Source: an uncultured Chloroflexia bacterium (GTDB taxonomy: Bacteria > Chloroflexota > Anaerolineae > Anaerolineales > Villigracilaceae). Taken from it: DNA of 64,000 nt. Within the stretch, counting starts at the first letter, position 1, and each line of letters begins with the position of its first letter. Of this stretch, positions 11,866 through 55,604 are shown piece by piece. The position numbers and the translations under genes are program-made. The DNA is taken from contig CAWATK010000005.1 of the NCBI GenBank assembly GCA_963784915.1, forward strand, positions 18,708-82,707, given 5' to 3'. The notes below the pieces were generated by a model. The model was not told the origin of the DNA. It did no database searches and worked only from the letters and a program-made list of their open reading frames with translations.

Positions 11866-13256
11866 CTACGGGGAAAGGTCCCGGGCAGTCCTGTCCATAA
11901 TGGCAAGCACCTCAGCCACGCGGCCCGCCGGCGTGTTTGATCGGAACATGGCATCGAAGCCATCCCCGATCATGATGCGCACCTGACGCCAGGAAGCGAG
12001 CTGCGGCTGTTCCCAACCTTGAGGGATCAGGGCCACGGCGGCAACCCACTGAGGGTGGCTGCGCGCGTAGTCGCGCAGATCCTCCTGGAGTGAAGTTCGG
12101 AGCGGGAACAAGCCCGTGACTTCCACCCACTCCCTCTGTTGTTCGGATTCCAGCATCCAGCGTATGAACAGCCAGGATGCGAGCTGCTCCTGCGGCGTGG
12201 AGCGCAGCATCACGAAGGATGATCCGTATACCATCATCCCGCTCTGATCCGCGCCGGGGAACGCGAGCACGGTCCAGTCATCTGTGTTCTCGGCCGCTGC
12301 CATCGCGCGGCCCTGTTCGGAGAGCTCCTCCAACGAGGCCGTGCCGAACAGGGCCTGACGGGTTGCGAAGGCCGCGGCTGGACCTTCCCCGGCCGGCGCG
12401 ATCCAACTACATCCATCATCATAAAGTTGCTTGAGGAAGACCGTTGCTTCCAGATTCCGCGGACTCAGAAACCTGTACCCGCGCCGTCGAGGACCCCACC
12501 TCCAAACACCGAGAGCCATGATAAGAACGTCATCGCGTCCGCGCGCATGAGCCAGCCACCCCGCTGATCGTTGGCCGCGTCATCGTCCCAATTCAACGCG
12601 CCATGGGCAGCACACGCCTGCTCGCGGAACTCCTGTGGATTGCGGGGCGGATCGGAAAAGCCCAGCTCCGTTGCCCACGTCCGGTTGTAAACAAGGAGGC
12701 TCGACGAGCGCTGTGCCGGCAGTCCCAGCCGCCGTGCCTCCAACCGATCCTGGTCCAGGAAAATCGACGGGTAGTCCTTGAGTTCGCTGTCGTTAAACCC
12801 ATAACCTGGATCAGAGAAGTATGCCGTCAGGTCGACCACGAACCCTTCGGCATCCCAAGCCAGAGCGTGTTCGGGCATGGCGATGGCCAGGTCGGGTCCT
12901 TCGTTTCCGGGCAGGGCCTCGGTCACGTCGTTGTAGAGTTCGGTGAAGCCAGTGTGTCCTTTCGTGCGGACTGTAATGCCCCACTCGTTCTTCTGATTGA
13001 ACTCAGCCACCTGCGAGTCGATAAGCCCGGCCTCGGGGCCATACCAGGGATGCCACACCTGAATACCTACCCCTTCGAGGTTCATGCTGACCGCAGGTGT
13101 CTGCGGCCGTGGGGCGGCCCTATCGGTTGCGGATGGCGTGGCCGCCGCGGTCGTGGCAGGCGTGCCCCCACTCACCGTTGGCTGGCACGCTGCAGAGGTT
13201 ATGATGACAAGAAGAAGCGCCACTCTCGCGCTCCGGGGTGCGCCGGTTCGGGTCAT
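11866..13256 (-). CDS. ABC transporter extracellular solute-binding protein (lipoprotein-like N-terminus); frameshift near 12470-12485
   Basis: Two abutting ORFs join as ...FGGGVLDGAGTG / YRFLSPRNLEATVFLKQLYDDG.... The N-terminus LLLVIITSAAC looks like a lipobox. The overall SBP family-1 character was judged by eye. Confidence 0.75.
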
Positions 13257-14447
13257 GGCGCGGCAAAGATCGAAAAGGGGACCGGGCTAAATGTCAGAAG
13301 AAGCACAACGATCATAAGCACGGCCACGGCCAGCCGCGGACGATCCAGAGGCGTGATCTGGTCCAGCGGCTCGGCTTGCACCCGTCCGAGCCATAGCAGA
13401 AGGATCGCCCAGATCCACCATCCATTCCAGAAGAATCCCAGGGCCAGAAGCGCTACCAGAATGAAGGGGAACATCCGGCGGGCTCGTGTGCCAAACAGAG
13501 CGTACACCACGTGGCCCCCGTCCAGAGTCCCGGCCGGTATGAGGTTCAGGGCCGTAACCAGCAGGCCGGCCCAGCCGGCGAAGGCTACGGGGTGAATGAA
13601 CACGTCGGTGGCCCCCAGCGGCACGGGCTGACCCGTGAAGAAGTATCGAACCCAGTAGAGCAGCGGCGATGCAGCGCCGAAATCCACCGGAGCGGGCAGC
13701 AACTTTCCGAACATAAGGTATTTTGCCGCCAGATAGACCACCGAGTTGCCTTCCATCTGCACCATGCCATCCACGCCCTGGATCAGGCCCAGATGCGACA
13801 GTGAAAGGCCGAGGAAGAGAATGGGTATGGCCACCACCAGCCCCGCCAGTGGACCCGCCACGCCGATGTCAAAGAGCACCCGTTTGTTCTTTGGGGTGGC
13901 CTGCATCAAGATCGCTGCGCCCATCGTTCCCAACGGCGGCAAAGGGAGGGGAATGAAGTAGGGAAGGGTCGCCCGCGTCTTGTGGTGGCGACTCATGAGG
14001 TAATGTCCGAATTCGTGGGCCAACAAAATCGACATCAGGCTGGCTGCATAGGGCCATCCGGTCAGGATCGACCTCGCCATAAACCAGAGCTGTCCCAGGA
14101 AGTCGGCTGGCGGCGTGCCCTGAGGCTGGGCGCCGACCAGCATCACACTCAACACTGTCAGCGCAAACAGAATGATGTTGACGGATATGCCGCGCCGGCT
14201 TCGCCTCGGGCTTTCGTGGAACCAGGTATATCACTGGTTGATCCCCGTCCTTGCGAAATAGCGGAGTGATCTCGAAAGCCCGCAGTGCTTCGGCAAGTTG
14301 ATCGTAGGCCGCGACGGTATCGTCGCCCAGGAAGTGCCCGCGATACCGCGCCAGCAGTCCGCGCGCCGGTTCTCCCAGAGTCACATCGTCAATGTGAAAG
14401 ACGCGGCCAACCAACTGATTCAAGAATTCTGATTCGGGGTAGGGCAT
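13253..14447 (-). CDS. Site-2 protease family (peptidase M50) membrane metalloprotease; frameshift near 14190-14200
   Basis: HEFGHYLMSRHH (HExxH) sits in a polytopic protein. The N-terminal 85 aa (MPYPESEFLNQL...VPRKPEAKP) are in another frame and join ...GISVNIILFALTVLSV. The stop overlaps the SBP ATG. Confidence 0.8.
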
Positions 14448-14571
14448 TCGCCTCCTTGGGCGATGGGCTGTGAAACGGAGTGCGGTCGCTGCAACTGCGC
14501 AAGTGATCCAGGCAGGATTCGCGCTCCAGCTATGGTCTCCAGGGGGTTGGCAGATCCGCCTGCCGGCGAAG

Positions 14572-14665
14572 CGGGAGTGGATGGGAGTTGAACCCACCGC
14601 GGCCCGCTACGCGACCCGCCACAGGTTTTGAAGACCAGGAAGCCCGCCGGGACTTTACCACTCCC
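14572..14665 (-). tRNA. selC: tRNA-Sec (anticodon UCA), canonical bacterial 8/5 fold, CCA not encoded
   Basis: Hand-folded. Acceptor 8 bp GGGAGTGG/CCACTCCC; D stem 6 bp AAGTCC/GGGCTT with a 4-nt loop; anticodon loop CTTCAAA; variable arm about 22 nt (GCGG-G-TCGC gta GCGG-G-CCGC); T stem GTGGG/CCCAT with loop TTCAACT; discriminator G. Confidence 0.8.
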
Positions 14666-18641: not shown

Positions 18642-19328
18642 GTGGATCTTGACGGCCTTGATCAACGCATTGTTGCGTGCCGCAAGTGCCCCCGCTTGGT
18701 GCATTGGCGGGAGGCGGTGGCAAAGACGCGACGCCGTGCCTTCATGGCCTGGGAGTATTGGGGTAAGCCCGTACCCGGGTTCGGCGACCATCGTGCCCGC
18801 ATCCTGGCGGTGGGGCTGGCACCGGGAGCGCACGGCTCCAATCGCACCGGCAGGCAATTCACCGGGGATGCATCCGGGGGGTTCCTCTTTCCGGCGCTGC
18901 ACCGGGCCGGACTCGCCAGCCAGCCCGAATCGATTTCCCGGGAGGATGGCTTGCAGCTTCGCGGTCTGTACTTGACCGCGGCCTGTCGCTGTGTGCCACC
19001 CGCCAACAAGCCCTCGCCGTTGGAAATCCTGAATTGCCTCCCATACCTTGAAGAGGAGATCCGGATGCTTTCGCCCCGCGTCATCGTGTGCCTGGGCCGG
19101 ATAGCGTTTGTCACTGTGGCAAGGCTGCACGCGTTGCGAATTTCCCGGCACAAGTTTGCCCACGGCGCATGCTTCGAGGTGGCTGCTGCCGGCAACCGGG
19201 CTCGCACATGGATCCTGTGTTCATATCACCCGAGCCGGCAAAACACACAGACCGGCAAGTTGAGCTCCAGCATGTTCGATGCGATATGGGAGCGGGCCAG
19301 CGAGTTGGCTCACGATGCGAGAGACTGA
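18642..19328 (+). CDS. Uracil-DNA glycosylase superfamily protein (family 4/5, UdgB-like)
   Basis: CRKCPRLVHWRE..., GLAPGAHGSNRTGRQFTGD (a family-5-like motif A) and C-terminal SYHPSRQNTQTGKL. Confidence 0.85.
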   Translation: MDLDGLDQRIVACRKCPRLVHWREAVAKTRRRAFMAWEYWGKPVPGFGDHRARILAVGLAPGAHGSNRTGRQFTGDASGGFLFPALHRAGLASQPESISREDGLQLRGLYLTAACRCVPPANKPSPLEILNCLPYLEEEIRMLSPRVIVCLGRIAFVTVARLHALRISRHKFAHGACFEVAAAGNRARTWILCSYHPSRQNTQTGKLSSSMFDAIWERASELAHDARD

Positions 19329-19809
19329 AGCTGGTCTGGAGGTTGCCCCGGAGTTCGAGGGACGGGACATACATGGTCGACTCGTCCGACTCGCGGATTT
19401 TCGCGGCCGGCCCGTTGTGCTGACTTTCTTGCGGGGTTTTGCCTGACCCTACTGTCGCGCGCAGTTGGCGCGCTTACGAGACCAGTACGCGGAGTTCACC
19501 AGCCGCGCTGCGGAGGTGATCGCAATCGGCCCAGACGGTCCAGGCGAGTTTGGCCGATATTGGCGCGCTGAGCACATCCCCTTCATCGGAATCCCGGATC
19601 CCGCGCACAAGGTGGCGCGCCTCTACCGGCAGGAAGTCGACCTTTTCAAACTGGGCCGCATGCCGCTTGTCGCGGTGATCGATGGACACGGCCGCTTGCG
19701 ATACGTGCATCGCGCCAACTCGATGTCGGATATCCCGGAGAACGGCACACTGCTCGAGGTGATCGAGTTCATTCGCGCCACCCCGGCGCAGCCGTTCAGA
19801 TCCACGTAG
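19315..19809 (+). CDS. AhpC/TSA (peroxiredoxin/redoxin-fold) selenoprotein candidate with in-frame UGA at 19444-19446 (U-P-Y-C redox motif)
   Basis: The same frame as ORF 19465-19809 reads from ATG 19315: ...APEFEGRDIHGRLVRLADFRGRPVVLTFLRGFA-TGA-PYCRAQLARLRDQY.... The TGA sits where the family has the first Cys of CPYC. A hairpin lies 10 nt downstream, and tRNA-Sec and selB are in the window. Confidence 0.75.
19457..19473 (+). promoter_or_regulatory. Candidate bacterial SECIS hairpin
   Basis: GCGCGC-AGUUG-GCGCGC forms 6 G-C pairs with a 5-nt loop containing G and U. It starts 10 nt 3' of the in-frame UGA. Confidence 0.5.
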
Positions 19810-24298: not shown

Positions 24299-24329
24299 TC
24301 GCTGGTACGCCGATCGACCGGATTGATCT

Positions 24330-24356
24330 GCGGCCGCCCCAATGCAGGGCGGCCGC
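24330..24356. terminator. Bidirectional GC hairpin between convergent ndk and rsfS
   Basis: GCGGCCGCCC caatgca GGGCGGCCGC is a perfect 10-bp stem located between the two stop codons. Confidence 0.5.
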
Positions 24357-24359
24357 TCT

Positions 24360-24716
24360 CTACTGGAGCTTCAGCACAACCTTTCCGTCCTGCCAGAATT
24401 CCTCCAGCCCATAATGCTCACGTTGGTCGGGCGAAAACAGATGCACCACGACATCGCCGTAGTCGACCACGACCCAGCCCTCGCGCGCCTCTCCCTGCTT
24501 GCGGCCGCGCTTTCGGTATTGTTCGCGAACCGCCTCCATGGCTGAGTCCGCCAATGCATCCAGCATGCGATCGCTGGTGCCAGTGCACAGGACGAAATAA
24601 TCGGTGAAGGACGCGACGTCCTTGATGTCGAGCAACAGGATGTCTTCGCCCTTCCTGGTTTCCAAAGACTCCACGATGGTGTGGGCGAGTTCAAGTGCGT
24701 TCAGGATCCACCTCAA
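24360..24716 (-). CDS. rsfS: Ribosome silencing factor RsfS (iojap family)
   Basis: 118 aa: ...LETRKGEDILLLDIKDVASFTDYFVLCTGTSDRMLDALADS...GWVVVDYGDVVVHLF. Confidence 0.9.
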   Translation of the reverse strand: MRWILNALELAHTIVESLETRKGEDILLLDIKDVASFTDYFVLCTGTSDRMLDALADSAMEAVREQYRKRGRKQGEAREGWVVVDYGDVVVHLFSPDQREHYGLEEFWQDGKVVLKLQ

Positions 24717-32005: not shown

Positions 32006-33944
32006 CTAGTGTCGACGACTGTTGGCTTGGGCATCACGGCCGATGGGATCCGGCCCAAACAGACGCGAGTCCCCAGTTCGGCGCGTGAGGCCTTTGAGAT
32101 CCAGGTGTTCCAGCAACGCTTGGGCGTATCGCCGGCTGGTACCGAACAGGTCCCGGACATCGGCCAGCGTGAAGGCCCCGCGTGGGCCCAGTTCGGCCCG
32201 CAGCCTATCTACCATCGCTTCATAGCTGGCTTTGCTGAAGACGACCTCAGCAGAAACCTGCACCAGTACGCCCTGTGTACGCAGTGCAGCGTACAGGTCG
32301 GGCCCCAGCGCCTGGACGCATTCCTTCACGCTTGGAGGTGCGGCGGGGCTGGCCTCGAACTTTTTCATCAGGGCATCCGCGGCAATCGTTTCAGCTTGCG
32401 ACAGGCGTGTCTCCTGGCTGCGAAGAGCGATCAAGCCGCCTCGGGATACGACACGTCCGCTTGTTTCGAGGTGCGCGAGAATGGCCTGAAACGGATGTGG
32501 GCCCAGCCGGAGGTAGTTCCTCAGCTCCTCGCGCGGCATCCCTCCTCGAAGTGGGAATTTGCTGTGAAAAACCTCCAGTGCCCCCTGCGTTTGTTGCGTG
32601 ATGATCTCAAGATTTTGAGCACTTACAACAAGCGTCCCGGCACTGGGTGAGACTGGACCAGGCTCCAGCGCCACCAGGGTGGATGCGTTGAGGAGTTCGG
32701 CCAGGGCAGTTCCTGCCGCCTGGGCCGTAAGCCGTGAGCGCTCCACTATTTCGCGGACGGGGGCTGGACCAAGCGACAAAGCGGCAACTAGCAGGAGGTC
32801 ACGCGGGTCGCCGGCTGCTAGCGCCTGCAGCCTGCCCAATACCGCCTCATCGTGGCGTTTGTGCCGATCCACAGGATGCGGATCGATGATCGTGCCACCT
32901 CCGACCGTCTCGGGTGGAGACGGCGTGCGGGCGATGAAACCATCTCCCTGCGCGCACACAACCGGATTCAGCAGTTCGAGCTGGATCCAGCCCTCCTCAC
33001 CCGGCCCAAGTTGATCCACGTCGAGCAGGCGCACTCTGGCCATCGTCTCGCTGGTGCCGATGAAGAATTTGATCTCGTGATTGTGGGTTATGCCGGCCGA
33101 AACGTCTGGCAGGACACGAATGTACGCATCGATGCGCCGGGTCGGCGCATACTGGGCTGGATGGGTGAGTACATCGCCTCGTCGCAGCGCTTCCGCGGGC
33201 ACCCCCGCAACATTCACTGCCGTCCACCACGCCGGGCAGCGCGCGTTCGACTTGCCGCCCATGGTTTTCCAGACCGCGCACACGGCCGATCACTCCGGAG
33301 GGCAGGAACTGGACTTCATCTCCGATCACCAACTCACCATCTGCCAGGGTCCCGGTCACGACAGTTCCGAAGCCCTCCATGCTGAAGACGCGATCAAGCG
33401 CCAGGCGCGGCCGGAGCAGGTTCGGCCTATTCGGCAGCGCATCCAGCAATCCTGCTGTGCGGCTCAGAAGCTCGGGCAGCCCGGCGCCCGTGAGGGCAGA
33501 GACGCGGATGATCGGTGTATTCTCGAATGTTGTCGAGCGGACCGCGGCCCGCACATCGGCCTCCACGGCGCCCAGCCGATCCGCGTCGCCCACCCTATCG
33601 GTCTTGGTCAAGACCAATAAACCGGCGCCAATACCCAGTAGATCCAATATCGCGAGATGCTCAAGCGTCTGAGGCATTACGCCCTCATCCGCGGCCACGA
33701 CCAACCATACCGCATCGATCCCGGCCATCCCGGCGAGCATATTTCGGATGAAATCGCGGTGCCCTGGGACATCAACAATCCCCACTTCGCGCCCGCCCGG
33801 CAGCATTAGCCATCCAAATCCAAGATCGATGGTCATCTCACGCTCGCGTTCCTCCTTCAGGCGATCCGGATGGATTCCCGTGAGCACGGCGATAAGCGTC
33901 GACTTGCCGTGGTCGACGTGACCCACGGTTCCGATGACGCGCAT
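32006..33944 (-). CDS. selB: Selenocysteine-specific translation elongation factor SelB; frameshift near 33225-33240
   Basis: The N-terminal GTPase reads MRVIGTVGHVDHGKSTL...DVPGHRDF...LTKTD. The second ORF continues TAVNVAGVPAEALRRGDVL... and ends with winged-helix-like repeats (...TSRRYAQALLEHLDLKGLTRR). The junction is ...GRQVERALPG / ...TAVNVAGV. Confidence 0.85.
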
Positions 33945-34002: not shown

Positions 34003-35197
34003 CTAGCGGACCGCTTTCTTCACCTTGGCCTTCGAGTGCCCCATAATGCGTTCGTAAGCGGTCAGCCAGTCCTGGGAGATGTTCATCAGTTCCTGCAATT
34101 GCTTCTCGCTCACGTCCGTCGTCTGCTGCAGCTGATCCTGAACGGTTTGCGTAGTCTCGTCGATAGCCGACAGGTGCTTCTCGGCCTTTTCCACGTCTTT
34201 GCGCAGTTCACGGATCAACTCCTCCTGCGCCAGTGTGTGCCCGGTCCAGCGTTTCTGCTCATCCGCCTTGAATGCGATCCATTCCTGACGGATGCGTTCA
34301 TCTGCCAGGCGTTGTATTTCCCCGAGCTCAGAGATCCGGCGTTCCAGTCGCTGATTCAATCCATCGTAGGCGTCCTGCGCCTGCTTGGCAGCCCGGATTA
34401 AGTTCCTCGAACGCCGCCACCTGACTCTCAGCGTTGCCCGCCTGTTGCTTGAACTGTTCGTACCGCTCCTGCCAGTCCTTCCACGCTCGATCGCGTTCCA
34501 GTTGCTGCAGTGCGTGCTGTTGCAGCAACGCCCCAAATCGATCCTGCCTGCTCGCTTCGGTTTCCAGCAGTTCGTTGACCCGGTTATCAATATTCCGGAT
34601 ATTGTCAGAGTGCAAGGCGCTCTTCTCGCGTGCCTCATCCACGCGCTTCCGCACTGTGGAGATTTCCGCCTGCAGATCGGTCAGGCGCTTGGCATCCTGG
34701 CGGCGGGTCTCCTCCATCGATTTCTGTGTCTCCTGCACCTCCCGGCTGAGGCGCATTGCGCTTTCCACGGCCGTATTGAGATCTTGGACTGCCAACAACC
34801 GCCTTTGATCCTCGTGCGCGCGATCCTTGCGAGCGGTTTGCTCTGATGCCGCGGCTGCCCGGAGGTCGAAAATCACCTTGCGAAGTTCCTCCATCTCGGT
34901 CTGGTGGCCCTTGGTCGCCGCTTGCTCACGCTGGGAGGCGTTTTTGTCGATTGTCTCGATAGACTTCGATACATCCACTCGGTGCTTGGCCAGCATCTGA
35001 TCGAATTGGTCGATGCGGGCGCCGGCCACGGAGAGATCGTTGACCTCTTGCGCCAATGTCTTGAGCTGCTGCACGAGCGCGCCGATGTTGGTGTTCAGGC
35101 CCGTGACGCGGTCGCCCAGGTCCTTAAGCTCAGCCTTGCCTTTGCGTTCCTGGTCTTCGATCCACTGAACCTTCTTGATGATCTCTTCGAATTCCAT
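34003..35197 (-). CDS. Coiled-coil protein of unknown function; frameshift near 34400
   Basis: It is heptad-rich and highly charged throughout (…AELKDLGDRVTGLNTNIGALVQQLKTLAQEVNDL…). The two ORFs join as ...ESQVAAFEEL / IRAAKQAQDAYDGLNQRLERR. Confidence 0.6.
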
Positions 35198-40210: not shown

Positions 40211-40286
40211 AGGGGTACAATTGCCCGAAACTCCGGCGGACGCGAGGGTCTAGGGCCATGAAGCCACCTCGCCGGTGGGTGCTGGC

Positions 40287-41775
40287 ATGACGGATGGCGA
40301 TTACCGCATTGAGAGAGACTCGCTCGGGGAAATGCGCGTGCCGGCTCGCGCGCTGTATGGCGTGCAGGCTGCCCGCGCCGTCGAGAACTTTCCCATTTCC
40401 GGGCTTCGGCCATGGCGGGCCTTCATCTGGTCCATCGCTCTCATAAAGCGTGCCGCGGCGGAAGTCAATTCAGATCTCGGACTGTTCCATGAGCGCGAGG
40501 TCGATGGCCGCAGGATCCCCGCGGCTGACCTGGTTCGGTCAATTGCCGAGGCCGCGCAGGAAGTCATGGACATGAAGTGGGATTCGGAGTTCGTGGTCGA
40601 TCCATTCCAGGCCGGGGCTGGCACTAGTCACAATATGAATGCCAATGAGGTGATTGCCAACCGCGCAACTCAGTTGCTGGGCGGCAATGCCGGTCAGTAC
40701 TACGTCCATCCGAACGACCACGTCAACATGGCCCAATCCACCAACGATGTCATTCCAACTGCTATCCGGTTGGGTGCATTATGGCGGCTCGACGAGTTGG
40801 TGTCCGCTGTAAAGGCGCTTGAGTCCGCGCTGGCGGCGAAAGCCGATGAGTTTGACGGCATCGTCAAGTCGGGCAGGAACTCACTTGCAGGACGCGGTCC
40901 CCGTGCGTCTGGGCCAGGAGTTTGGTGCCTACGCCAAGGCGATGGAGCGGGAAAGCGAGCGCTTGCTGCACGCTGCTCAGGGCTTGCGGCGTCTGGGAAT
41001 TGGCGGGACAGCCGTTGGTTCAGGCCTGAACGCTCATCCGGAGTACCACCGCCGCATGGTCCGGCGCTTATCCGAGCTCAGCGGCCTTCAGTTGACAGAG
41101 TCCGACAACCTGTTTGAGTCGATGCAGTCCCTCGCAGACGTGGCTGAGTTCTCCGCCGCCATGCGCACCCTGGCGCTGACTCTAATTCGCATTGCCAATG
41201 ACCTGCGGCTGCTTGCCTCGGGACCGTCCACCGGCTTGGATGAGATCCGCCTGCCAGCGGTACAGCCCGGATCGAGCATCATGCCGGGCAAAGTTAACCC
41301 GGTTATGGCGGAAATGCTGGATCAGGCCATGTTCCACGTCATTGGCTGCGACACAGCTGTGAGCTACGCCGTCCAGGCCGGTCAGCTGGAACTCAATGTG
41401 ATGATGCCCGTGATTGCTCACAACCTGTTCGAGATGATGCAGGTCTTGATCGGCGCTATCACTGCCTTCACGGAGCGGGCGGTGCGCGGCATTACCGCCA
41501 ACCCGGAAAAGGCGGAGGGCTGGCTCGCCCGCAATGCGATTATTGTCACGGCACTGAATCCTCTGATTGGATATTCACAGGGCGCCGCCCTCGTGAAAGA
41601 CGCCCTGTCCAAGAACGCTTCAATTCGGGAGCTGGCTGTGCAAAAAGCGCGGGCAGGCGAGCTTCGGCACCGTGATGAGGATCGAGCAGTCAAGCCCGAG
41701 GAGATCGAGGCGGCGCTTTCCGACTTACGACGGTTGACAGAAGGCGGCATACTTGGCGTTGCCGCCGGCGGGTAG
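40287..41775 (+). CDS. aspA: Aspartate ammonia-lyase (fumarase/aspartase family); 1-nt frameshift near 40878
   Basis: YRIERDSLGEMRVPARALYGVQAARAVENFPISG, GTSHNMNANEVIANRA and the SS-loop GSSIMPGKVNPVMAE (aspartase-like). The junction is ...VKSGR / THLQDAVPVRLGQEF, with an extra A in aggaac. Confidence 0.85.
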
Positions 41776-54689: not shown

Positions 54690-55604
54690 GTGAAGGTGCT
54701 TGTGTTGGGCTCTGGTCCTGCCGGACTCTCGGCTGCGCTGTATGCCGCCAGGGCTGAGCTTGCGCCGGTCGTCCTATCCGGGATCCAATTGGGTGGCCAG
54801 GCTGCCTTGACTTATGCTGTCGAGAACTATCCGGGTTTTCCGGAGGGCGTGGGCGGGGCCCAACTCGGTGAGCTCTTCCAGAAGCAGGCCGAGCATTTTG
54901 GCGCGCGCGTTGAATTCGATACGGCCAATCAAGTCGACTTTGCGTCCAGGCCCTTTCGGGTCCGAACAGACAATACCGAATACCTGGCGGAAGCCGTCAT
55001 CATTGCCACCGGCGCCAGTCCAAATCAACTTGAGGTGCCAGGCGAAAGTGAACTCACGGGCCGCGGCGTGTCCTACTGCGCCACCTGCGACGGCTGGTTC
55101 TTCAAGGACAAGAAAGTAGTGATCGTTGGAGGCGGAGACAGCGCCCTTGAGGAGGGCCTTTTCATCACACGCTACGCCAATTCGGTCACGATCATCCATC
55201 GCCGCCAGGAGTTGCGCGCGAGCCCACTCCTGCAGAAGCGGGCGACTGAGCACCCAAAGATCGACTTTATGTGGAACACCGTGGTTACTGAAATCCTGGG
55301 CTCCGAGAAGGTCGAGGCAGTCCGCCTCAAGGACACGGCGACGGGCGCCGAGCGGATTCTGGAGACCGACGGGATTTTCGTTTTTATTGGGCACACTCCG
55401 AATACGCAGATGTTTAACGGCCAGCTGAAGATGGACCCGCGGGGCTACATCCAGATCGACGCGCGCATGCAGACCTCCGTACCGGGGGTGTTCGCCAGCG
55501 GGGAGGCAGCCGATCCTCATTTCCGTCAGGTTGTTACTTCGGCCGGGATGGGGGCCGCTGCGGCAATTCAGGCTACTCGCTTTCTCGAAGAGCACAGCTC
55601 CTGA
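54690..55604 (+). CDS. trxB: Thioredoxin-disulfide reductase
   Basis: GSGPAGLSAALYAAR, redox centre CATCDG, GGGDSALEEG, HRRQELRA and GVFASGE. Confidence 0.9.
   Translation: MKVLVLGSGPAGLSAALYAARAELAPVVLSGIQLGGQAALTYAVENYPGFPEGVGGAQLGELFQKQAEHFGARVEFDTANQVDFASRPFRVRTDNTEYLAEAVIIATGASPNQLEVPGESELTGRGVSYCATCDGWFFKDKKVVIVGGGDSALEEGLFITRYANSVTIIHRRQELRASPLLQKRATEHPKIDFMWNTVVTEILGSEKVEAVRLKDTATGAERILETDGIFVFIGHTPNTQMFNGQLKMDPRGYIQIDARMQTSVPGVFASGEAADPHFRQVVTSAGMGAAAAIQATRFLEEHSS

What the first reader, a model, noticed from the sequence alone, without database searches (positions are those of the whole stretch)
19315..19809. Hidden selenoprotein: AhpC/TSA-fold gene with in-frame UGA at the CxxC position and a SECIS-like hairpin
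The ORF track shows only a 114-aa C-terminal fragment (19465-19809). The same frame read from ATG 19315 gives MRETEAGLEVAPEFEGRDIHGRLVRLADFRGRPVVLTFLRGFA-[TGA]-PYCRAQLARLRDQYAEFTSRAAEVIAIGPD.... This is a complete redoxin/peroxiredoxin N-terminus. The TGA (19444-19446) replaces the first Cys of the family's CPYC motif, giving U-P-Y-C. Ten nucleotides after the UGA lies a perfect hairpin GCGCGC-AGUUG-GCGCGC (19457-19473), at the spacing expected of a bacterial SECIS. tRNA-Sec and selB are in the same window. Standard gene callers would truncate or miss this gene.
Basis: partly seen in the sequence, partly recalled or inferred. Interest (0 to 1): 0.7.

Follow-up and report, generated by a model that had tools for sequence, protein, structure and literature searches.

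The report
Unannotated selenocysteine Prx-like redox gene
This is a real but routinely mis-annotated gene for a small thioredoxin-fold redox enzyme whose active-site residue is selenocysteine, encoded by an in-frame UGA; it belongs to an already known class of bacterial selenoproteins, so it is a sound annotation fix rather than new biology.

Summary
Frame 19315-19809 (+) has one in-frame TGA (19444-19446). The perfect hairpin GCGCGC-AGTTG-GCGCGC lies at 19457-19473. Pfam AhpC/TSA matches end to end across the TGA (E 1.2e-22).

Comparative data support the selenocysteine reading:
- All 80 related loci fetched from Chloroflexota/Anaerolineales genomes, plus two closer relatives, carry TGA at this column (U-P-[Y/H/F]-C).
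- One syntenic orthologue has TGC (CPFC).
- Sequence before the TGA evolves like coding sequence, with identity 0.76/0.86/0.42 at codon positions 1/2/3.
- Synonymous sites are frozen only over the seven hairpin codons. 80 of 83 Sec forms keep all six stem pairs, against 5.4% expected for the same peptide.
- The hairpin fits the published bacterial SECIS model at its minimum spacing.
- tRNA-Sec and selB are in the window.

Caveats:
- selB is split by one frameshift in this assembly. Two other genes are split the same way, so I read this as assembly error.
- selA and selD were not found among the window ORFs I scanned.
- The hairpin alone is not statistically unusual.

The protein is a cytoplasmic UxxC thiol-disulfide oxidoreductase. 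It fits the known "Prx-like thiol:disulfide oxidoreductase" selenoprotein class (PF00578, UxxC). Verdict: new member of a known kind.

The parts
19315..19809 (+). Complete coding sequence of the Prx-like selenoprotein: 164 codons including Sec44, stop TAG. The start ATG 19315 overlaps the end of the upstream UDG gene by 14 nt. An alternative in-frame ATG lies at 19279.
   Evidence: Translation. Pfam PF00578 covers residues 10-131, profile positions 4-124 of 124, E 1.2e-22. Close relatives L081 and L084 start at the equivalent ATG. Codon-position conservation before and after the TGA is the same.
19444..19446 (+). In-frame TGA read as selenocysteine (U44), the first residue of the U-P-Y-C redox motif.
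   Evidence: TGA is at this column in 80 of 80 genome loci, and in L081 and L084. The orthologue L082 has TGC. It aligns with the first Cys of the ResA CxxC. In the AF2 model of the Cys orthologue it sits at the N-cap of helix 41-52.
19457..19473 (+). SECIS hairpin inside the coding sequence: 6-bp G/C stem and loop AGUUG. The loop begins 16 nt after the UGA.
   Evidence: Sequence. Energy -10.7 kcal/mol. Synonymous entropy falls to 0.0-0.65 bits, against 0.8-2.3 expected, only at codons C47-R53. 80 of 83 Sec forms keep all six pairs against 5.4% under the null, and 25 of the 29 stem substitutions are C-to-U changes opposite G, which keep a wobble pair. It fits the bSECIS constraints quoted in PMC13188914.
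14571..14665 (-). tRNA-Sec (selC), anticodon UCA.
   Evidence: ARAGORN. Rfam RF01852, 66.2 bits against a gathering score of 47. Relative L081 has a tRNA-Sec at the syntenic place.
32006..33944 (-). selB, the Sec-specific elongation factor, interrupted by one frameshift near 33220-33230 in this assembly.
   Evidence: TIGR00475 positions 2-236 lie in ORF 32997-33944 (246.9 bits, cutoff 242.25). Positions 240-578 lie in ORF 32006-33283, in another frame. Pfam finds GTP_EFTU in the first ORF and the SelB beta-barrel, wing_2 and wing_3 domains in the second.
18642..19328 (+). Upstream uracil-DNA glycosylase family gene. It overlaps the selenoprotein start by 14 nt and is probably co-transcribed.
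   Evidence: Pfam PF03167, E 3.8e-33. A UDG gene lies next to the Prx-like gene in 77 of 84 loci.

Best explanation
Positions 19315-19809 encode a 164-residue cytoplasmic thioredoxin-fold (Prx/BCP-like) thiol-disulfide oxidoreductase. Its N-terminal active-site residue is selenocysteine, in the motif U44-P-Y-C47.

Decoding (inferred from the E. coli mechanism). During translation the UGA at 19444-19446 is decoded by Sec-tRNA(Sec), whose gene is at 14571-14665. SelB (32006-33944) delivers it after binding the 17-nt hairpin that starts 10 nt downstream, inside the codons for C-R-A-Q-L-A-R.

Chemistry (inferred by analogy with CxxC proteins). The selenolate sits at the N-cap of the active-site helix and attacks a substrate disulfide, or an oxidant. 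Cys47 resolves the intermediate into an intramolecular selenenylsulfide. A thiol reductant system then re-reduces it.

Shown here: the gene structure, conservation of the TGA, the RNA-level constraint on the hairpin, the fold, and the presence of tRNA-Sec and selB.
Inferred: actual Sec insertion, SelB binding to this hairpin, the chemistry, and the substrate.
For: - Pfam AhpC/TSA matches full length across the TGA.
- TGA is at the same column in 80 of 80 loci from other Chloroflexota genomes, and in the closer relatives L081 and L084. The search patterns favoured Cys and Trp codons, not TGA.
- A syntenic Cys orthologue has TGC, giving CPFC.
- The region before the TGA shows the same codon periodicity of conservation as the region after it: 0.76/0.86/0.42 against 0.72/0.80/0.42.
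- Synonymous variation is lost only at the seven hairpin codons, where third-position identity is 0.90.
- All six stem pairs are kept in 80 of 83 Sec forms, against 5.4% expected for the same peptide.
- Loop positions are fixed at synonymous sites: TTG is used in 95% of sequences against about 18% by family codon usage, and CAG in 100% against 63%.
- The hairpin meets the bSECIS model: 5-nt loop, G at loop position 2 followed by U, 6-bp stem, 16-nt spacing, -10.7 kcal/mol.
- TGA is an ordinary stop in this genome, ending 10 of 23 Pfam-supported genes, so there is no genome-wide recoding.
- tRNA-Sec and selB are in the window, and tRNA-Sec is syntenic in relative L081.
- The AF2 model of the Cys orthologue (pLDDT 90.3) places the Sec-equivalent Cys at the helix N-cap. 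The nearest solved structures are Bcp1 (TM 0.86), AhpE and ResA.
Against: - selB is frameshifted in this assembly. If the frameshift is real, Sec insertion would fail in this organism.
- selA and selD were not found among the roughly 70 window ORFs scanned. Their presence in the genome is unknown.
- The hairpin is not thermodynamically or statistically exceptional for this G+C-rich sequence.
- No Rfam SECIS family matches it.
- There is almost no double-compensatory covariation. Only L058 shows one, and in a shifted register.
- There is no experimental evidence of selenium incorporation.
Confidence: 0.88

Rival explanations
1. The gene is a decaying selenoprotein gene in this organism. The selB frameshift is real, Sec can no longer be inserted, and translation stops at codon 44 or leaks through with Trp or Cys.
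For: selB is split between two frames near 33220-33230, and not at a long homopolymer. No selA or selD was seen in the window.
Against: - Both halves of selB are otherwise intact and cover positions 2-578 of the 581-position TIGR00475 model.
- Fumarase (Lyase_1 profile 1-157 | 158-312) and an SBP_bac_8 gene are split in the same way in this window.
- Relative L081 has several split genes and a tRNA with a 4-nt anticodon. This pattern points to assembly indel errors.
- The TGA, the SECIS and the reading frame of the Prx-like gene are all intact, and the gene is 88% identical over the C-terminal part compared to the L081 orthologue.
Confidence: 0.07
2. The TGA is a true stop. The upstream 43 codons and the hairpin are coincidental, and the real gene is the 114-aa ORF 19465-19809, or the locus is a pseudogene.
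For: Public annotation calls most homologues as proteins of 105-114 aa that start after the TGA. bSECIS-like hairpins follow 7% of all TGAs in the window.
Against: - The 114-aa fragment lacks the active-site motif and the first beta-strands of the fold. Pfam and the AF2 model need residues 10-44.
- The N-terminal part is conserved as protein across 83 genomes, with normal third-position variation.
- TGA is fixed at one column in all 83 Sec-form sequences.
- The first start codon after the TGA is not conserved.
Confidence: 0.02
3. The hairpin is only a by-product of the palindromic peptide R-A-x-L-A-R written in G+C-rich codons. Read-through of the UGA, if any, does not depend on it.
For: CGC-GCG...GCG-CGC is self-complementary. 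The Cys orthologue still forms five of the six pairs. The fold z-score is 0.
Against: - With the same peptide and the family's own codon usage, only 5.4% of sequences would form all six pairs. 96% do.
- Genomes of about 50% G+C still use CGC, GCG, CAG, TTG, GCG and CGC almost exclusively here, but not at other Arg, Ala and Leu codons of the gene.
- The loop G-U-U-G is fixed at synonymous sites. In the Cys form the Gln and Leu codons that supply the loop are CAT and CTC.
Confidence: 0.03

Closest known systems
Prx-like thiol:disulfide oxidoreductase selenoproteins. This is the 'Prx-like 1' class (pfam00578, UxxC) of Zhang & Gladyshev; see PMC2398784, PMC1794560 and the 2026 review PMC13188914.
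   Same: PF00578 domain, UxxC motif with Sec first, a bacterial SECIS in the coding sequence just after the UGA, existence of Cys homologues, and a predicted thiol-oxidoreductase role.
   Different: - Direct sequence relatedness to the reference member (WP_010940744.1, which by my recollection is a Geobacter protein) could not be tested.
- This Chloroflexota subfamily is almost entirely in the Sec form: 83 of the 84 aligned sequences (the window, 82 other Sec forms and one Cys form). The GOS class has about ten times more Cys than Sec forms.
- No NCBIfam model reaches its cutoff.
- The public records I saw call it a truncated 'redoxin domain-containing protein' or 'peroxiredoxin'.
TlpA/ResA-type thiol-disulfide oxidoreductases (B. 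subtilis ResA, PDB 1st9/3c71).
   Same: Best PDB sequence match, E 1.6e-08. The CxxC aligns with U-P-Y-C, and the invariant Pro117 aligns with the ResA cis-Pro position. Structural match at TMq 0.74-0.77.
   Different: The window protein has no N-terminal membrane anchor or signal sequence; it starts MRETEAGLEVAPEFEG. The NCBIfam ResA model scores 38.8 bits against a cutoff of 170. The fold is closer to Bcp1 and AhpE (TM 0.82-0.86).
Peroxiredoxins of the BCP/PrxQ and AhpE types, and the true Prx selenoproteins (TxxU).
   Same: Overall fold: Bcp1 3drn at TM 0.86 and rmsd 2.0 A. Same Pfam family.
   Different: - In the alignment to the Sulfolobus tokodaii Prx 2ywn, Cys47 lies on the peroxidatic Cys and Sec44 lies on the Thr of the TxxC motif.
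- In the Prx selenoproteins Sec replaces the peroxidatic Cys, giving TxxU.
- The Prx Pro of PxxxTxxC is absent.
- The Prx Arg falls in an insertion that this protein lacks.
SelL-related redox protein (NCBIfam NF040769).
   Same: Best NCBIfam hit. Prx-like fold with a redox motif at the same place.
   Different: 60.3 bits against a cutoff of 120, and the match covers only residues 10-104. It is not a member by NCBI's criterion.
The E. coli fdhF-type bacterial SECIS and the general bSECIS model.
   Same: A stem-loop immediately 3' of the UGA inside the ORF, with a small apical loop carrying G then U, and within the model's limits for loop, stem, spacing and energy. From my own knowledge, the E. 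coli minimal element is also a 17-nt upper stem-loop about 11 nt from the UGA.
   Different: There is no conserved lower stem and no bulged U. The spacing is the minimum the model allows (16 nt). No Rfam SECIS model matches. SelB binding is untested.

Membership tests
Bacterial selenoprotein gene (Sec-UGA decoded through a bSECIS) | The in-frame UGA aligns with Cys in homologues | tested here: met
   Orthologue L082/L083 has TGC (CPFC) at this column. ResA aligns its first CxxC Cys there.
Bacterial selenoprotein gene (Sec-UGA decoded through a bSECIS) | The coding frame is conserved on both sides of the UGA, and the UGA itself is conserved in other genomes | tested here: met
   82 other Sec-form loci have TGA at this column. 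Codon-position identity is 0.76/0.86/0.42 before the TGA and 0.72/0.80/0.42 after it.
Bacterial selenoprotein gene (Sec-UGA decoded through a bSECIS) | bSECIS model: loop of 3-9 nt, upper stem of 4-16 bp, G in the first two loop positions, 16-37 nt from UGA to loop, MFE of -7.5 kcal/mol or lower (PMC13188914) | tested here: met
   Loop AGUUG (5 nt, G at position 2 followed by U), 6-bp stem, 16-nt spacing, -10.7 kcal/mol. The hairpin is conserved at synonymous sites. The model is loose: 7% of all TGAs in the window pass it.
Bacterial selenoprotein gene (Sec-UGA decoded through a bSECIS) | tRNA-Sec (selC) in the genome | tested here: met
   14571-14665 (-), by ARAGORN and by Rfam at 66 bits.
Bacterial selenoprotein gene (Sec-UGA decoded through a bSECIS) | An intact SelB | tested here: inconclusive
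   The TIGR00475 selB model is covered from position 2 to 578, but across two frames, with one frameshift near 33220-33230. Other genes in the window are split the same way, which suggests assembly error.
Bacterial selenoprotein gene (Sec-UGA decoded through a bSECIS) | SelA and SelD in the genome | not testable with these tools
   Neither was found among the window ORFs scanned. The rest of the genome is not available.
Bacterial selenoprotein gene (Sec-UGA decoded through a bSECIS) | Selenium actually incorporated at the UGA | not testable with these tools
   This needs 75Se labelling or mass spectrometry.
Prx-like thiol:disulfide oxidoreductase selenoproteins (Prx-like 1: pfam00578 + UxxC) | A PF00578 (AhpC/TSA) domain | tested here: met
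   E 1.2e-22, 80.6 bits against a cutoff of 26, profile positions 4-124 of 124.
Prx-like thiol:disulfide oxidoreductase selenoproteins (Prx-like 1: pfam00578 + UxxC) | A UxxC motif with Sec as the first residue | tested here: met
   U44-P-Y-C47 in the window. U-P-[Y/H/F]-C in all relatives.
Prx-like thiol:disulfide oxidoreductase selenoproteins (Prx-like 1: pfam00578 + UxxC) | Sequence relatedness to the reference member (WP_010940744.1) | not tested
   The reference sequence could not be fetched by accession with these tools.
Peroxiredoxin proper (AhpC/BCP/PrxQ) | The PxxxTxxC active-site motif with a catalytic Thr and Arg | tested here: not met
   In the alignment to 2ywn, Sec44 occupies the Thr position and Cys47 the peroxidatic Cys position. 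There is no Pro at -7. The Prx Arg falls in an insertion that this protein lacks.
Peroxiredoxin proper (AhpC/BCP/PrxQ) | The Prx/BCP fold | tested here: met
   The AF2 model of the Cys orthologue (pLDDT 90.3) matches Bcp1 3drn at TM 0.86 and AhpE at TM 0.82.
TlpA/ResA thiol-disulfide oxidoreductases | A CxxC plus a cis-Pro loop on a Trx-like fold | tested here: met
   The U-P-Y-C aligns with C-P-H-C of the ResA variant 3c71, and Pro117 aligns with the ResA Pro. TMq to ResA is 0.74-0.77.
TlpA/ResA thiol-disulfide oxidoreductases | Extracytoplasmic location through an N-terminal membrane anchor or signal peptide, and a family model score above cutoff | tested here: not met
   The N-terminus MRETEAGLEVAPEFEG has no hydrophobic segment. 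The NCBIfam ResA model scores 38.8 bits against 170, and TlpA 17.6 against 230.
SelL-related redox protein (NF040769) | A score at or above NCBI's curated cutoff | tested here: not met
   60.3 bits against 120.

The most novel reading that the evidence does not exclude
This would be a Chloroflexota-wide, almost obligately Sec-containing Prx-like subfamily that selenoproteome surveys have not described as such. Only one Cys form was seen among the 84 aligned family sequences. The subfamily uses a minimal 17-nt SECIS at the shortest spacing the model allows. It sits in a conserved cluster, QueA - UDG - Sec protein - a protein of about 356 aa with a CysS_C domain - thymidine phosphorylase. That context would point to a specific role tied to nucleotide or DNA-base metabolism, or to tRNA, rather than to general antioxidant defence.
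Probability: 0.15. Interest if true: 0.5.

Novelty: new member of a known kind. Interest (0 to 1): 0.33.

Why it matters
- **Annotation.** The gene is systematically mis-annotated. Of the 120 best database homologues, about 106 are truncated to roughly 105-124 residues. Thirteen are full length only because the caller used genetic code 4 and wrote Trp for the UGA.
- **Biology.** It shows that selenocysteine use is widespread in this phylum, which the selenoproteome papers I could read barely cover.
- **SECIS example.** It gives a clean natural case of a minimal SECIS whose stem and loop are visibly held by selection on synonymous sites.
- **Limit.** It does not change how selenoproteins are understood to work.

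Tried and rejected
- **Rfam searches.** The whole window at gathering thresholds gave only the three tRNAs. A permissive search of 19400-19560 gave no SECIS family, only a chance snoRNA hit at E 3.7.
- **Folding energy.** Energy against shuffles was uninformative, z = 0.0.
- **Finding the source genome.** Exact look-ups of P0002 and of the window's thymidine phosphorylase found nothing. Cluster look-up gave no names or accessions.
- **Scan for other selenoprotein genes in the window.** I looked for TGAs with long open frames on both sides, redox-like contexts and hairpins. It gave only noise.
  - The U-P-I-C context at 34681-34683 (-) next to selB lies in an Arg/Cys-rich off-frame stretch and is not a gene.
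  - The -24.9 kcal/mol hairpin after the TGA at 24371 (-) looks like a terminator.
- **Search for selA and selD.** About 70 ORFs were scanned in seven Pfam searches and neither was found.
- **Genome-wide UGA recoding (codes 4 or 25).** Rejected, because 10 of 23 Pfam-supported genes end in TGA.
- **Covariation.** Strict double-compensatory covariation in the stem is nearly absent, because the stem hardly varies. The evidence rests instead on synonymous-site constraint and wobble-only substitutions.
Full report
**1. The observation**

From ATG 19315 to TAG 19807-19809 there is one frame of 164 codons with a single in-frame TGA at 19444-19446. It reads MRETEAGLEVAPEFEGRDIHGRLVRLADFRGRPVVLTFLRGFA-[TGA]-PYCRAQLARLRD....
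- The mechanical ORF list contains only the C-terminal 114-aa piece, 19465-19809.
- GCGCGC-AGTTG-GCGCGC occupies 19457-19473, 10 nt after the TGA.
- tRNA-Sec is at 14571-14665 on the minus strand, by ARAGORN and by Rfam RF01852 (66 bits against a gathering score of 47).
- A selB gene lies at 32006-33944 on the minus strand.

**2. Is it more than chance?**

Taken alone, the hairpin is not.
- The 60 nt after the UGA fold at -17.4 kcal/mol, exactly the mean of dinucleotide-preserving shuffles (z = 0.0).
- I coded the published bacterial SECIS constraints and applied them to the whole window. 7% of all 1,881 TGA triplets pass. So do 21 of the 183 TGAs that have long open frames on both sides.
- No Rfam SECIS family matches the region.

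What is beyond chance is the protein match and the comparative evidence.
- Pfam AhpC/TSA (PF00578) matches residues 10-131 to profile positions 4-124 of 124, straight across the TGA, at E 1.2e-22.

**3. Comparative evidence for a translated UGA**

*Protein database search.* A protein search found 704 homologues.
- Most of the best 120 are 105-114 residues long and cover only the part after the TGA.
- Fourteen are full length. Thirteen of these have Trp at the TGA column and one (P0012) has Cys.
- The Trp forms are artefacts. The DNA for P0001 (locus L084) has TGA there, and the gene call also ran through the true TGA stop. It was therefore translated with genetic code 4.

- The search patterns allowed Trp or Cys codons at that column, or lay elsewhere in the gene. 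They were therefore not biased toward TGA.
- All 80 loci kept have TGA at the column, in U-P-[Y/H/F]-C. Nearly all are Chloroflexota/Anaerolineales MAGs.
- The 88%-identical, fully syntenic relative L081 has it too. There the gene caller produced a 43-aa N-terminal piece and a 111-aa C-terminal piece.

*The Cys orthologue.* It has TGC (C-P-F-C) and sits in the same neighbourhood: QueA, UDG..., Prx-like gene..., thymidine phosphorylase.

*Codon-position conservation.* In a codon alignment of 84 sequences:
- The stretch before the TGA has pairwise identity 0.76/0.86/0.42 at codon positions 1/2/3.
- The stretch after it has 0.72/0.80/0.42.
- The upstream part is therefore translated in this frame.

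*No genome-wide recoding.* TGA ends 10 of 23 Pfam-supported genes in the window.

**4. Evidence that the hairpin is a functional RNA element**

- In the same codon alignment, synonymous-codon entropy matches the family's codon usage almost everywhere. For example, an invariant Leu has 2.24 bits against 2.30 expected.
- Entropy collapses at exactly seven consecutive codons, C47-R-A-Q-L-A-R53: 0.45, 0.51, 0.19, 0.00, 0.35, 0.16 and 0.65 bits, against 0.79-2.30 expected. Third-position identity there is 0.90.
- 80 of 83 Sec forms keep all six stem pairs. Drawing codons for the same peptide from the family's own usage gives six pairs in only 5.4% of trials.
- 25 of the 29 stem substitutions seen are C-to-U changes opposite G, which keep a wobble pair: 7, 7 and 11 cases at three positions. 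Four break a pair.
- Loop bases are also fixed at synonymous sites. TTG is used in 95% of sequences against about 18% by usage, and CAG in 100% against 63%.
- In the Cys orthologue, five of the six pairs persist. Its Gln and Leu codons, which supply the loop, read CAT and CTC instead of CAG and TTG.
- The element meets each constraint of the consensus bSECIS model quoted in PMC13188914:

| Constraint | Model | This element |
|---|---|---|
| Apical loop | 3-9 nt | 5 nt |
| Upper stem | 4-16 bp | 6 bp |
| G in first two loop positions | required | G at position 2, followed by U |
| UGA to loop | 16-37 nt | 16 nt (the minimum) |
| MFE | -7.5 kcal/mol or lower | -10.7 kcal/mol |

- There is essentially no double-compensatory covariation, because the stem barely varies. 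One divergent member (L058) keeps a 5-bp stem in a register shifted by one, with a C-G to U-A change.

**5. What the protein is**

- The best solved-structure sequence match is B. subtilis ResA. Its first CxxC cysteine aligns with Sec44, and its active-site Pro aligns with the invariant Pro117.
- In the alignment to the Sulfolobus tokodaii peroxiredoxin 2ywn, Cys47 falls on the peroxidatic Cys and Sec44 falls on the Thr of TxxC. The Prx Arg lies in an insertion that this protein lacks. This is therefore not a Prx-type active site. In the true Prx selenoproteins Sec replaces the peroxidatic Cys, giving TxxU.
- An AlphaFold2 model of the natural Cys orthologue (pLDDT 90.3) puts the Sec-equivalent Cys40 at the N-cap of helix 41-52, the classic place of the nucleophile in a CxxC protein.
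- Foldseek finds Bcp1 (TM 0.86), AhpE and ResA as nearest structures.
- The N-terminus has no signal or anchor segment, so the protein is probably cytoplasmic.
- NCBIfam gives no hit above cutoff. The best is 'SelL-related redox protein' at 60 bits against 120.
- The most likely function is a UxxC thiol-disulfide oxidoreductase that cycles through a selenenylsulfide with Cys47. The chemistry and substrate are inferred by analogy and are not shown here.

**6. The Sec machinery and the caveat**

- selB is complete by model coverage. TIGR00475 positions 2-236 lie in ORF 32997-33944 and score 246.9 bits, above the 242.25 cutoff on their own. Positions 240-578 lie in ORF 32006-33283.
- The two parts are in different frames, with one indel near 33220-33230.
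- The same kind of split affects two other genes in this window:
  - a class II fumarase (Lyase_1 profile 1-157 in one ORF and 158-312 in the next);
  - an SBP_bac_8 gene (profile 3-149 and 157-267).
- Relative L081 has several split genes and a tRNA-Pro with a four-base anticodon.
- I therefore read the selB frameshift as an assembly indel error, with roughly 7% left for a real, recent inactivation.
- selA and selD were not found in the roughly 70 ORFs scanned.

**7. Comparison with what is known**

- 'Prx-like thiol:disulfide oxidoreductase' (PF00578; UxxC or UxxU) is listed among bacterial selenoprotein families 'predicted with high confidence' in the 2026 review PMC13188914.
- The same class appears in PMC1794560 and, as 'Prx-like 1 (pfam00578, UxxC)', in the GOS survey PMC2398784.
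- The window gene meets both defining criteria used there, the Pfam domain and the motif. It is best filed as a new, unannotated member of that known kind.
- I could not test direct relatedness to the reference protein.
- Two points are mildly unusual.
  - The subfamily is almost entirely in the Sec form.
  - It is very widespread in Chloroflexota, a phylum credited with three selenoproteins in the 2006 survey and not mentioned by name in the 2026 review.

**8. Verdict**

- Confidence that this is a genuine Sec-encoding gene is 0.88. The remaining doubt is mostly about whether the machinery is intact in this particular organism.
- Novelty: new member of a known kind.
- Interest is moderate to low (0.33). 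It is a solid annotation correction with a clean SECIS-conservation signal, not a new mechanism.

Noticed in passing
window 32006-33944 (-), break near 33220-33230: selB is split into two frames by a single indel. The N-terminal GTPase and domain II are in ORF 32997-33944. The beta-barrel and winged helices are in ORF 32006-33283. Each half is otherwise intact.
   Followed up: yes
window 40275-41775 (+); 11866-13256 (-); possibly 13253-14597 (-): Other genes are frameshift-split in the same way. These are class II fumarase (Lyase_1 profile 1-157 | 158-312) and an SBP_bac_8 solute-binding protein (profile 3-149 | 157-267). The M50 peptidase may be split too: it is 300 aa here against 397 aa in relative L081. 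This suggests an indel-prone (long-read?) assembly.
   Followed up: partly
L001-L080, 3' end of the Prx-like gene and the next 1-100 nt; L082 3490-4560: In Anaerolineales orthologues a conserved gene of about 356 aa starts 1-4 nt after the stop. It begins M-T-L-G-Q-I-A-F-L-G-S-G-E-T-S-L-A-G-G-R-I-F-E and has a C-terminal CysS_C domain (PF23493, E 3.6e-05) and a faint Peptidase_S51 hit. It is present in 81 of 84 loci. It is absent from the window, from L081 and from L084 (L084 extends only about 320 nt past the gene). Function unknown.
   Followed up: partly
L001-L080, about 30-40 nt before the stop of the Prx-like gene: There is a second patch of frozen synonymous sites. Val-Ile is written GTA-ATA in 94-96% of sequences, both rare codons, giving G-TAA-TAG-A. 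AAC and TCA are also fixed further on. This may be an overlapping signal for the downstream gene (a promoter, a translation-coupling signal or a +1-frame stop trap). It is not present in the window clade.
   Followed up: no
L004, L007, L015, L017, L021, L028, between the Prx-like stop and the downstream gene: Tandem heptamer repeats, (TAACTGA)n or (ACACTGA)n, fill the short intergenic spacer in some genomes. Other genomes have the two genes abutting.
   Followed up: no
Public protein records P0001, P0004-P0006, P0008, P0010, P0011, P0015-P0017, P0020, P0021, P0033; L084 745-1326: On short metagenomic contigs the gene caller chose genetic code 4 and wrote Trp for the Sec UGA. This gives 'full-length' proteins with a false W-P-Y-C motif. 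In L084 it also read through the true TGA stop and added about 23 false residues.
   Followed up: yes
L081 5636-5712 (-): ARAGORN reports a tRNA with a four-base anticodon (gggg) where the window has tRNA-Pro(GGG). This is probably a one-base insertion error in that assembly.
   Followed up: no
L069 (JBLMZU010000312.1): A MAG labelled Bacteroidota carries a typical Anaerolineales-type copy of this selenoprotein gene, 61% identical with TGA and the same SECIS. This may be a binning contaminant or a transfer.
   Followed up: no
window 54690-55604 (+): A 304-aa thioredoxin-reductase-like flavoprotein (Pyr_redox_2, E 1e-57) is encoded 35 kb from the selenoprotein gene. It is a candidate component of the reducing system, but nothing links the two.
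   Followed up: no
window about 24320-24373 (-): A very stable hairpin, GCGGCCGCCCUGCAUUGGGGCGGCCGC (-24.9 kcal/mol), lies downstream of the TGA stop of ORF 24371-24694 (its loop begins 25 nt after the stop). It looks like an intrinsic terminator, not a SECIS.
   Followed up: no
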